Positions 9,200 to 9,911 of a DNA stretch of 64,000 bases are shown here, in pieces; the first letter of the stretch is position 1; each line of letters begins with the position of its first letter. Both the position numbers and the translations under genes were made by a program. The stretch lies in the NCBI RefSeq assembly GCF_009914755.1, contig NC_060930.1. One strand, 5' to 3'. The notes beneath the pieces were generated by a model. It made no database searches. It worked only from the letters and a program-made list of their open reading frames with translations, and was not told the origin of the DNA. This DNA comes from the human T2T-CHM13v2.0 reference genome, Homo sapiens.

Positions 9200-9911
9200 T
9201 TTTCTTTTTTTTTTTTTTTTAGAAACTGATGTTTATTTCCCATCAACCTTATTGCCATGTTGCTTAAGAACACATGCAAGAACAGCTTAAGACCATTAAG
9301 TGGTTGCTCCTATCCATTCAGTGGCCTGAGCAATGGGAGCTGCAGACCAGTCTTCCGTGGCAGGCTGAGCACTCCAATATTCAGTAGGGAACTGCTGAAT
9401 AGTCACAGAGGGCACCTGCACACCTTCAGACCAGTCTGCAATCTCAGGCTGAGTAGCAGTGAACTCAGGAGCTGAATCAGTCCATTCACCCTGAAATTCC
9501 TCCTCGGTCACAGCATTTTCAGCAGCAGCCTGCTCTTCTTTTTCAGTCTCTTCAGGATCTCTGTAGAAGTAGAGATCAGGCATGACCTCCCGCGGGTATT
9601 CACGGGAAATGGTGCCACGCATGCGCAGAACTTCCCGAGCCGGCGTCCACCGCATCACACCCGCTGAGTGAGCTCCCTCGTTGTTGCACGGGATGGCAAA
9701 GTCCACATAGTGCAGAGGAGAATTGTTACAGAGCAATGCTAGGTAGGTTAACATAAGATGCCTTAATGAGAGGCTGATGGTCAGCCCTGGGGTCAGTAAC
9801 CACAAGAAGCCGTGGCTCCTGGAAGGCTGCCTGGATTTGGTTAGTGAAGGTTCCAGGCGTGAAGAGGCCAGCAATTGGAGTGGCTCCAGTGGCAGCAGCA
9901 AACTTAAGCAT
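9200..9911 (-). pseudogene. RPSA: 5'-truncated processed pseudogene of RPSA (40S ribosomal protein uS2 / 37-kDa laminin receptor); possibly RPSAP52
   Basis: Translations [27 protein letters not shown] and [20 protein letters not shown] match RPSA from about residue 88 to the end. Intronless; frameshift near 9730; premature TAA at 9296; 3'UTR with AATAAA (9232-9237); poly(A) at 9200-9220; TSD CATATTTTC at 9191-9199 and 9909-9917. Confidence 0.96.

What the first reader, a model, noticed from the sequence alone, without database searches (positions are those of the whole stretch)
9591..9690. Reverse CpG decay: a clustered gain of CpGs inside the RPSA retrocopy
Seen: 12 CpGs in 100 bp in an otherwise CpG-depleted window. 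Against the RPSA sequence as I recall it ([28 protein letters not shown]), this copy reads [28 protein letters not shown]. Nearly every change is TpG->CpG or CpA->CpG: K->E, V->A, W->R twice, M->T, L->P, and two CCA->CCG. That is about 8 new CpGs, while the roughly 4 parental CpGs are kept. Another CA->CG lies at about 9505. Most changes hit conserved residues, so they are unlikely to be ancestral states. The rest of the copy shows ordinary CpG loss. Inference: a focal, CpG-context-specific AT->GC process, such as GC-biased gene conversion with T:G repair at a recombination hotspot, or germline-methylation-linked CpG gain, is building a nascent mini CpG island. CpG gain has been described in retrocopies that became imprinted DMRs (e.g. 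PPP1R26P1 in RB1). This could be an allele- or germline-specific methylation element.
Basis: partly seen in the sequence, partly recalled or inferred. Interest (0 to 1): 0.8.

Follow-up and report, generated by a model that had tools for sequence, protein, structure and literature searches.

The report
CpG-gain cluster in RPSA pseudogene RPSAP43
A 98-base stretch of an old, dead copy of the ribosomal protein gene RPSA has really turned seven or eight TG/CA pairs into CG, which is unusual among its sister copies but fits a known kind of local GC-biased drift, and nothing shows that it has a function.

Summary
Window 9591-9690 holds 12 CpGs, the only stretch with 7 or more CpGs per 100 bp in 64 kb. 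I compared it with the present RPSA gene on chromosome 3 and with 39 other RPSA retrocopies of the same genome. Four CpGs are parental, and eight arise from TpG/CpA->CpG transitions at 9689, 9679, 9663, 9652, 9645, 9642, 9593 and 9592. One of these (9593) is shared by 15 of 39 other copies and is probably inherited.

A site-by-copy null expects 1.4 such gains; 8 are seen (P about 1e-4). Correcting for 240 copy-by-window tests in the family gives 0.03. That does not survive a genome-wide look-elsewhere correction.

The CpG specificity is weaker than it looks. 24 of 47 A/T sites here create a CpG by transition (P 0.02-0.03). The firmer signal is AT->GC 9:1 inside 98 bp against 7:24 in the rest of the copy.

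No donor sequence exists in the genome. A neighbouring Alu shows ordinary CpG decay.

Best reading: a very focal GC-biased fixation episode (0.45). Rivals: chance (0.33) and TDG-type CpG-creating repair (0.15). The imprinting reading has no support.

The parts
9217..9912 (-). RPSAP43: a 5'-truncated processed pseudogene of RPSA (ribosomal protein SA/uS2), covering the last 699 bases of the mRNA
   Evidence: It matches four consecutive RPSA exons of G000:C3 without introns, at 91-93% identity, and is 92.0% identical to the spliced parent segment. The frame is broken by stops and a 5-base deletion. The peptide matches solved uS2 chains, E 2e-71.
9592..9689 (-). The cluster: 10 differences from the parental sequence in 98 bp, 9 of them AT->GC. 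Eight are TpG/CpA->CpG transitions (9689, 9679, 9663, 9652, 9645, 9642, 9593, 9592). The other two are 9658 T>G and 9598 C>T.
   Evidence: 8 gains observed against 1.44 expected. AT->GC against GC->AT is 9:1 here, 97:150 in the same segment of the 39 other copies (Fisher P 0.0018) and 7:24 in the rest of this copy (P 2.6e-4).
9593..9593 (-). The G of a Pro codon CCG. It is probably an inherited older parental CpG rather than a gain.
   Evidence: 15 of 39 other retrocopies, young and old, carry G at this synonymous site, while the present parent gene has A.
9603..9637 (-). Four parental CpGs, all retained (C at 9637, 9625, 9619, 9604)
   Evidence: 4 of 4 kept inside the segment and 2 of 7 outside. 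By my hand sum of the table, copies of similar age (background substitutions 19-36) keep 34 of 60 in this segment, and 4 of those 15 copies keep all four.
9618..9626 (-). Parental palindrome-like word GCGCATGCG, intact in this copy. It resembles the NRF1 site GCGCATGCGC (the link to NRF1 is recalled; papers holding both terms were seen only as a search listing).
   Evidence: Among the 23 other copies with at least 19 background substitutions, the word is intact in 5 and broken in 18. Copies with the intact word show more CpG gains per background substitution (0.087 against 0.036, P 0.076, not significant).
9505..9505 (-). A further CpA->CpG transition (K>E), 87 bp downstream of the cluster
   Evidence: parent-segment site 411; also seen in 2 other copies.
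9200..9220 (-). Poly(A) tail of the retrocopy, preceded by AATAAA at 9232-9237
   Evidence: Read directly.
9191..9199 (-). 3' target-site duplication GAAAATATG. The 5' copy lies at 9909-9917, and its last two bases could also belong to the retrocopy.
   Evidence: Read directly.
9939..10214 (-). A 5'-truncated Alu with its A-tail, flanked by a 13-base duplication (10215-10227 and 9926-9938). Used as a control for local CpG decay.
   Evidence: It keeps 3 of 19 inferred ancestral CpGs (16%). The median for 69 Alus is 21%, with an interquartile range of 16-32%.

Best explanation
RPSAP43 is an old, neutral, L1-type retrocopy of RPSA. It has about 4% non-CpG divergence from the parental sequence.

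Within 98 bp (9592-9689) it went through a very focal GC-biased substitution episode. Nine of its ten changes are AT->GC. Half of all A/T sites in this Trp/Met-codon-rich stretch sit in TpG or CpA, so seven (perhaps eight) of the changes made new CpGs. The five inherited CpGs survived.

The most likely cause is GC-biased gene conversion at the core of a former recombination hotspot. That is a transmission bias for G/C alleles in heteroduplex repair. The T:G->C:G repair enzymes that work in CpG context (TDG, MBD4) may have sharpened it.

The result is a CpG islet that barely meets the 200-bp CpG-island rule. Nothing shows that it has a function.

Shown here: the derived state of the changes, the excess over paralogues, the sharp boundaries, and the absence of a donor sequence. 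Inferred: the process itself (gBGC), its timing, and any methylation state.
For: - All eight sites are TpG/CpA in the present parent gene and in the consensus of 39 other copies. Six of them change residues that solved uS2 chains keep.
- 8 CpG-creating transitions are seen against 1.44 expected from a site-by-copy model: Poisson P 1.3e-4, negative binomial 6e-4, scan within the copy 1e-5 to 2e-4. The other 39 copies are not overdispersed (chi2/df 1.1).
- It is the top of 240 family tests, Bonferroni 0.031.
- AT->GC against GC->AT is 9:1 in the stretch, 97:150 in the same stretch of the other copies (P 0.0018) and 7:24 in the rest of RPSAP43 (P 2.6e-4). It is the strongest focal AT->GC excess among the 40 copies.
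- Focal AT->GC clusters that create many CpGs are a described product of gBGC. Examples are CpG beacon clusters and HAR1, where 118 bp holds 18 changes and 8 of them create CpGs (PMC3469460, passages; PMC12687773, passages).
- New CpGs outnumber new GpCs 8 to 3, but the opportunity ratio is already 24 to 14. A general AT->GC bias therefore suffices.
Against: - The bias ends abruptly. The 110 bases upstream show 1:7 and those downstream 2:3. Predicted human gBGC tracts have median lengths of about 0.3-1 kb (PMC3744432, Table 2).
- No match to the recalled PRDM9 13-mer lies nearer than 8250-8262, about 1.3 kb away.
- AT->GC changes that do not create CpGs are not raised (1 seen, about 1.25 expected by my scaling of the counts). 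A CpG-specific process fits slightly better (P 0.02-0.03).
- The region is AT-rich (38% G+C) and interstitial, not subtelomeric.
- The family-corrected P of 0.03 does not survive a genome-wide look-elsewhere correction.
- Timing, recombination history and methylation could not be examined, because no primate genomes, population data or methylomes are at hand.
Confidence: 0.45

Rival explanations
1. Chance outlier. Ordinary neutral substitutions happened to pile up in a segment that is unusually rich in CpG-creating opportunities (24 TpG/CpA sites in 110 bp) and is intrinsically about twice as gain-prone. The first reader picked it out because it was the densest CpG spot in a CpG-poor window.
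For: - Bonferroni inside the RPSA family gives only 0.031.
- With pseudo-counts or a negative binomial the nominal P rises to 5e-4 to 6e-4.
- The same segment holds 5 new CpGs in two other copies, L022 and L047.
- It gains CpGs at 1.57 against 0.73 events per site in the 39 other copies.
- The total substitution density of the stretch is not extreme: 10 in 110 bp against 33 in 589 bp elsewhere.
- The human genome holds thousands of processed pseudogenes (recalled). At P about 1e-4 per 110-bp window, a few such clusters are expected somewhere.
Against: - Several partly independent oddities coincide: 8 gains, no CpG loss (4 of 4 kept), only one GC->AT change where about 4 are expected (my scaling of the counts), and a reversal of the copy's own 7:24 bias.
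- The null is well calibrated on the other copies. The second-best of 240 tests has P 5.8e-3, and dispersion is 1.1.
Confidence: 0.33
2. A CpG-specific mutational process in a small germline-hypomethylated footprint. Mismatch-specific thymine glycosylases (TDG, perhaps MBD4) remove T from TpG opposite a damaged or normal A. Repair then writes C, so TpG/CpA becomes CpG. A methylation-sensitive factor bound at the intact GCGCATGCG word could keep about 100 bp unmethylated and accessible to TDG.
For: - The biochemistry and the proposal that it builds CpG islands are published (PMC4041421, abstract and passages; PMC11488719, abstract).
- All 8 AT->GC transitions in the stretch create CpGs, and none of the 23 other A/T sites changed by transition: P 0.0023 under uniform rates and 0.02-0.03 under the family's own rates.
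- In the 39 other copies CpG-creating transitions are 2.2 times as frequent in this CpG-rich segment (P 0.026), while other AT->GC transitions are not (0.64 against 0.58). They also rise with the number of parental CpGs within 30 bp (rho 0.24, P 0.008).
- All inherited CpGs are kept.
- The gains lie within 16 to 63 bp of the palindrome.
Against: - The link between parental CpGs and gains did not replicate in the 5' 355 bases of the mRNA in 39 copies (rho 0.05, P 0.72, though only 7 informative sites). It therefore rests on this one segment.
- The difference between copies with an intact and a broken palindrome is not significant (P 0.076, 5 against 18 copies) and is confounded with CpG survival.
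- Hypomethylation alone would raise the count of surviving new CpGs only about 1.4-fold (my estimate).
- The neighbouring Alu decays normally.
- TDG occupancy and methylation are untestable here.
Confidence: 0.15
3. A functional methylation element: a nascent imprinted or germline differentially methylated region, or a promoter, with CpGs kept or added by selection.
For: - A 200-bp window (9505-9704) formally reaches 13 CpGs, 57% G+C and observed/expected 0.81.
- The copy lies in an intron of HS3ST5, and intronic retrocopy CpG islands can be imprinted (PMC3839921, PMC4122923, passages).
Against: - The dense part is only about 100 bp. At 500 bp observed/expected falls to 0.42.
- The hub's RefSeq table shows no exon, transcript start or functional element there.
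- The RB1 precedent inherited its island from the parent gene rather than building it.
- The changes are scattered missense hits with no recognisable new motif.
- The only paper found for RPSAP43 is an eQTL study, seen as a listing only.
Confidence: 0.03
4. A single copying event: interlocus gene conversion from a CpG-rich RPSA-like donor, template switching on a quasi-palindrome, or an assembly artefact.
For: Eight like changes within 98 bp could in principle arrive together.
Against: - A whole-genome search with 9575-9705 finds no locus above 92% identity other than the stretch itself. That level is parent-like, and 40 of 56 candidates were scored.
- No inverted repeat has arms that carry the changes.
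- The single-strand DNA fold is no more stable than shuffled sequence (z 0.45).
- The window comes from a telomere-to-telomere assembly with a curated pseudogene annotation (hub table).
Confidence: 0.02

Closest known systems
Clusters of GC-biased (weak-to-strong) substitutions and 'CpG beacon' clusters attributed to GC-biased gene conversion. Sources: Bell et al. 2012, PMC3469460; HAQER CpG Beacons, PMC12687773; phastBias tracts, PMC3744432; the HAR1 core.
   Same: A dense local run of AT->GC substitutions, many of which create CpGs, with no matching CpG loss, in otherwise unremarkable DNA. The HAR1 core has 18 changes in 118 bp, 8 of them CpG-creating. Here there are 10 changes in 98 bp, 8 of them CpG-creating.
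   Different: - Those clusters are defined on the human branch against other primates, at 17-20 or more new CpGs per kb. They are mostly subtelomeric, and the bias usually extends over 0.3-1 kb or more.
- This one is polarised against a parent gene and paralogues over the copy's whole life. It has at most 10 new CpGs in 696 bp, lies in AT-rich interstitial DNA and stops within 100 bp.
- Its lineage and its recombination history are unknown.
[quoted passage not shown] 2014, PMC4041421).
   Same: Exactly the substitution class seen here, on both strands. It includes CGTG->CGCG, which is what 9592 would be if the G at 9593 was inherited. It occurs next to existing CpGs.
   Different: That model is biochemical, supported by unpolarised SNP spectra, and is proposed for unmethylated promoter islands. 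There is no evidence here of hypomethylation or TDG presence. The specificity test is only P 0.02-0.03.
Retrocopy-derived intronic CpG islands that became imprinted (PPP1R26P1/CpG85 in RB1; PMC3839921, PMC4122923).
   Same: A truncated retrocopy in an intron of a host gene carries a CpG-rich piece.
   Different: CpG85 descends from a CpG island already present in the parental exon and was maintained. It is a promoter with a spliced transcript and shows proven differential methylation. RPSAP43's islet was mostly made after insertion, is about 100 bp long, and has no known transcript or methylation data.
Ordinary RPSA processed pseudogenes (39 others compared here).
   Same: Same parental mRNA, L1-type hallmarks, general CpG decay and AT-biased drift outside the stretch.
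   Different: None of the 39 others has more than 5 new CpGs in any 110 bp, and RPSAP43 has 8. None has more than 8 CpGs in this segment, and RPSAP43 has 12.

Membership tests
Processed pseudogene (L1-mediated retrocopy) of RPSA | Continuous match across exon-exon junctions of the parent gene, with no introns | tested here: met
   Four parental exon pieces on G000:C3 abut in the copy, and the GT/AG intron borders are seen in the parent.
Processed pseudogene (L1-mediated retrocopy) of RPSA | Poly(A) tail after a polyadenylation signal, and target-site duplications | tested here: met
   AATAAA at 9232-9237, A-run at 9200-9220, and the 9-base repeat GAAAATATG at 9191-9199 and 9909-9917, all read.
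Processed pseudogene (L1-mediated retrocopy) of RPSA | Disabled reading frame | tested here: met
   Stops in the upstream part and a 5-base deletion. The copy is 5'-truncated and lacks the first 340 or so bases of the mRNA.
CpG island | At least 200 bp with G+C above 50% and observed/expected CpG above 0.6 (classical rule, recalled) | tested here: met
   9505-9704: 13 CpGs, G+C 0.57, o/e 0.81. It only just reaches the minimum length.
CpG island | At least 500 bp with G+C of 55% or more and o/e of 0.65 or more (stricter rule, recalled) | tested here: not met
   9391-9890: 15 CpGs, G+C 0.53, o/e 0.42.
CpG island | Unmethylated in the germline | not testable with these tools
   No methylation data. 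Indirect evidence only: 4 of 4 parental CpGs are kept, but the Alu 250-600 bp away decays normally.
gBGC tract or CpG beacon cluster | Local excess of AT->GC over GC->AT substitutions | tested here: met
   9:1 against 97:150 in the paralogues and 7:24 in the rest of the copy.
gBGC tract or CpG beacon cluster | Lineage-specific changes fixed in one species, relative to outgroup primates | not testable with these tools
   No primate genomes are held. Polarity comes from the parent gene and paralogues only.
gBGC tract or CpG beacon cluster | Density of 17-20 or more new CpGs per kb | tested here: not met
   At most 10 new CpGs in the 696-bp copy. The flanks cannot be polarised.
gBGC tract or CpG beacon cluster | Co-location with a present or past recombination hotspot | tested here: inconclusive
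   No match to the recalled PRDM9 13-mer within 1.3 kb. Hotspot maps are not available, and past hotspots leave no motif.
TDG-type aberrant repair footprint | Changes restricted to TpG/CpA->CpG on both strands | tested here: inconclusive
   8 of 8 AT->GC transitions (5 T>C, 3 A>G on the sense strand), but P is only 0.02-0.03 given the family's own rates. One T>G and one C>T are also present.
TDG-type aberrant repair footprint | Rate rises with nearby unmethylated CpG density | tested here: inconclusive
   Positive in the 3' 699 bases (rho 0.24, P 0.008). Not replicated in the 5' 355 bases (rho 0.05, P 0.72).
Imprinted germline DMR of retrocopy origin | Parent-of-origin-specific methylation | not testable with these tools
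   No methylation or phased data.
Imprinted germline DMR of retrocopy origin | Promoter activity or a transcript starting in the island | tested here: not met
   The hub's RefSeq table lists no exon or functional element at 9217-9912. The nearest exons of other transcripts are 6627-7832 and 14056-14138.

The most novel reading that the evidence does not exclude
A CpG-specific, self-reinforcing process could nucleate a CpG islet from scratch in neutral DNA. The process would be TDG/MBD4-type repair that writes C opposite the A of CpA next to already unmethylated CpGs. It might be seeded by a methylation-sensitive factor on the intact GCGCATGCG word. RPSAP43 would then be a caught-in-the-act example. 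The 40 or more independent RPSA insertions would form a natural replicate series in which the same 110 bp gains CpGs twice as fast as its surroundings.
Probability: 0.15. Interest if true: 0.6.

Novelty: new member of a known kind. Interest (0 to 1): 0.3.

Why it matters
If the cluster is a real biased episode, it is a clean example for one reason. The parental sequence is known exactly, and 39 or more independent sister copies supply the neutral expectation site by site. Ordinary genomic DNA does not offer that.

It shows how a CpG-poor, non-functional sequence can acquire island-like CpG density within 100 bp. That bears on how CpG islands and 'CpG beacons' arise (gBGC, CpG-directed repair or selection).

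Retrocopy families could be used genome-wide to measure TpG/CpA->CpG rates as a function of local CpG density, methylation and recombination.

If the cluster is chance, the lesson is methodological. In Trp/Met-rich coding sequence half of all AT->GC transitions create CpGs, so 'CpG-specific' gain is easily over-read.

Tried and rejected
- Donor search. A whole-genome search with the 131-base stretch found nothing above 92% identity, so gene conversion from a paralogue is rejected for this genome.
- Template switching or hairpin. Inverted and direct repeats (one search was a strand-format error that I corrected) and a single-strand DNA fold (z 0.45) gave nothing.
- PRDM9 13-mer (recalled motif). 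There are 6 matches in the window but none within 1.3 kb. Four are near-identical words at 18039, 45020, 48311 and 55927, each inside a stretch the hub lists as repeat-masked. This is uninformative.
- Broad local hypomethylation. The adjacent Alu keeps 3 of 19 CpGs, at or below the median of 69 Alus. Rejected beyond the 100-bp stretch.
- 'CpG begets CpG' as a general rule. It is significant in the 3' 699 bases but not replicated in the 5' 355 bases of 39 copies, so it is not claimed.
- Intact against broken GCGCATGCG word as a predictor of gains. P 0.076 and confounded, so it is kept only as a lead.
- Retention of the four parental CpGs as evidence for hypomethylation. By my hand count of the table, 4 of 15 copies of similar age also keep all four, so the evidence is weak.
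- The only paper that names RPSAP43 is an eQTL study, seen as a search listing only.
- Rows left out. Sites where the present parent differs from the consensus, and sites changed in 7 or more copies (suspected older parental states: 323, 494 and 674 among CpG-creating sites; 278, 346, 370, 642 and 643 among the others), were dropped from the rate comparisons. The 40 unscored candidates and five further loci seen were not added to the alignment.

Full report
**What is there.**
Window 9217-9912 (minus strand) is RPSAP43, a processed pseudogene of ribosomal protein SA.
- It matches four consecutive exons of the RPSA gene of the same genome (G000:C3:39423686-39425363) without introns, at 91-93% identity.
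- It ends in AATAAA and an A-run and is flanked by a 9-base duplication.
- It is 5'-truncated and its frame is broken.
- Its peptide matches solved uS2/RPSA chains at E 2e-71.
- It differs from the parental sequence at 28 of 672 non-CpG sites, a middling age among the 40 copies compared (mean of the others 25.5).

- Window 9591-9690 has 12 CpGs. No other 100-base stretch of the window has even 7. The window has 402 CpGs and 38% G+C.
- I built the parental reference twice: from the present gene and as the majority of 39 other RPSA retrocopies found by a whole-genome search (40 of 80 candidates scored). The two agree at every site of the stretch.
- RPSAP43 differs at ten positions between 9592 and 9689. 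Eight are TpG/CpA->CpG transitions (9689, 9679, 9663, 9652, 9645, 9642, 9593, 9592). The other two are one T>G (9658) and one C>T (9598).
- The four parental CpGs are all kept. Outside the stretch only 2 of 7 survive.

**One correction.**
Site 9593 (CCA>CCG, synonymous) carries G in 15 of the 39 other copies, young and old. The likeliest reading is that older RPSA mRNAs had CCG there and the parent gene has since lost it. So RPSAP43 inherited that CpG. That leaves seven gains plus five inherited CpGs.

**Is it more than chance?**
- Method: a site-by-copy model takes each site's rate from the other 39 copies and scales it by each copy's background divergence.
- It expects 1.44 CpG-creating transitions in the stretch, or 1.02 without site 9593. 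Eight (seven) are seen.
- Poisson P is 1.3e-4 (9e-5). With pseudo-counts it is about 5e-4, with a negative binomial 6e-4, and scanning all 110-base windows of the copy gives 1e-5 to 2e-4.
- The null is well behaved. Dispersion among the others is 1.1. In 240 leave-one-out tests (40 copies by 6 windows) the second-best P is 5.8e-3. RPSAP43's stretch is first, with Bonferroni 0.031.
- AT->GC against GC->AT is 9:1 here, 97:150 in the same stretch of the other copies (P 0.0018) and 7:24 in the rest of RPSAP43 (P 2.6e-4).
- So within the family it is a real outlier. Against the thousands of human retrocopies (a recalled figure) a P of about 1e-4 is not decisive.

- (a) The stretch is full of TGG and ATG codons. 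24 of its 47 A/T sites create a CpG by transition. In the other copies 57-65% of AT->GC transitions here already do so. '8 of 8' therefore has P of only 0.03, and '7 of 7' has 0.02. New CpGs outnumber new GpCs 8:3, but the opportunities are already 24:14.
- (b) The segment is gain-prone in general. In the 39 other copies it shows 1.57 against 0.73 events per site (P 0.026), while other AT->GC transitions are equal (0.64 against 0.58). Two other copies have 5 new CpGs in it.
- (c) The apparent rule that gains rise with nearby parental CpGs (rho 0.24, P 0.008) was not reproduced in the 5' 355 bases of the mRNA (rho 0.05, P 0.72, with few informative sites).

**Extent.**
The bias is confined to about 100 bp. 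The adjacent 110-base windows show 1:7 upstream and 2:3 downstream. An Alu 250-600 bp upstream keeps only 3 of 19 CpGs, at or below the median of 69 Alus. A 200-bp window just meets the classical CpG-island rule (13 CpGs, o/e 0.81), while 500 bp does not (o/e 0.42).

**Single-event explanations fail.**
- No other locus in the genome exceeds 92% identity to the stretch.
- No inverted repeat carries the changes.
- The strand does not fold unusually.

**Mechanism.**
- Focal AT->GC clusters that create CpGs are a described outcome of GC-biased gene conversion: CpG beacon clusters and the HAR1 core (PMC3469460), and HAQER CpG Beacons (PMC12687773).
- A CpG-specific route also exists in print: aberrant TDG repair turning TpG/CpA into CpG (PMC4041421; PMC11488719, abstract).
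- The data slightly prefer CpG specificity (P 0.02-0.03), but a general GC bias acting on this sequence would look almost the same.
- Against typical gBGC are the 100-bp limit (predicted tracts have medians of 0.3-1 kb, PMC3744432), the AT-rich interstitial setting and the lack of a nearby PRDM9-type word.
- My ranking: focal GC-biased fixation 0.45, chance 0.33, TDG-type footprint 0.15, functional or imprinted element 0.03, copying event or artefact 0.02.

**The imprinting analogy.**
In the passages I read, the RB1 CpG85 island is described as descending from an island in the parental exon and being maintained (PMC3839921; PMC4122923). It is not described as built by CpG gain. No transcript, functional element or methylation datum links RPSAP43 to such a role. 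The one paper naming it is an eQTL study, seen as a listing only.

**What could not be done.**
No primate genomes, population variation, recombination maps or methylomes are at hand. The timing of the changes, and the choice among gBGC, CpG-directed repair and chance, therefore stay open. The tests are listed under next steps.

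Noticed in passing
Parent-segment sites 323 (window 9593), 494 and 674; sites 642 and 643: Several sites carry a 'derived' G/C state in many independent retrocopies although the present RPSA gene has A/T. 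Counted over all 40 copies for the CpG-creating sites: 16 at site 323, 14 at 494 and 7 at 674. Counted over the 39 others for two non-CpG sites: 19 at 642 and 12 at 643. The retrocopies seem to preserve older states of the parent mRNA, including CpGs at synonymous sites that the gene has since lost. They form a fossil series of RPSA.
   Followed up: partly
L022 (G000:C6:113539165-113539880) and L047 (G000:C10:28467059-28467754); also L017: Other RPSA retrocopies also pile up new CpGs in the same 110-base segment. L022 and L047 each have 5 new CpGs, and L022 has 8 CpGs in all, with the GCGCATGCG word intact. L022 lies only 1.7 Mb from RPSAP43 on the same chromosome.
   Followed up: partly
Window 9618-9626, and the same word in the 39 other copies: The parental word GCGCATGCG resembles an NRF1 site (recalled). 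Among copies with at least 19 background substitutions, the 5 that keep it show 0.087 CpG gains per background substitution and the 18 that lost it show 0.036 (P 0.076). This is suggestive only and is confounded with CpG survival.
   Followed up: partly
Window 9302-9700, minus strand: The last 133 codons of the dead copy are still an open frame despite 22 amino-acid changes. Upstream the frame is broken. I did not test whether this exceeds chance.
   Followed up: no
Window 9926-10227: A 5'-truncated Alu with a 13-base target-site duplication (AAAGAAATTTTCT) sits about 10 bases upstream of the retrocopy's own 5' duplication. The two insertions are nearly adjacent.
   Followed up: no
Window 18039, 45020, 48311 and 55927 (also 8250 and 60711): The recalled PRDM9-type 13-mer occurs 6 times against 0.8 expected. 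Four of the matches are near-identical words (CCACCTTGGCCTC or CCACCTTGACCTC) lying in stretches the hub lists as repeat-masked, so the excess looks repeat-driven.
   Followed up: no
Window 9583-9607 and 9669-9693: The two ends of the cluster form a weak 25-base direct repeat (72% identity). The derived G at 9689 makes TCCCGTG identical to the parental TCCCGTG at 9603-9609. This is probably coincidence.
   Followed up: no
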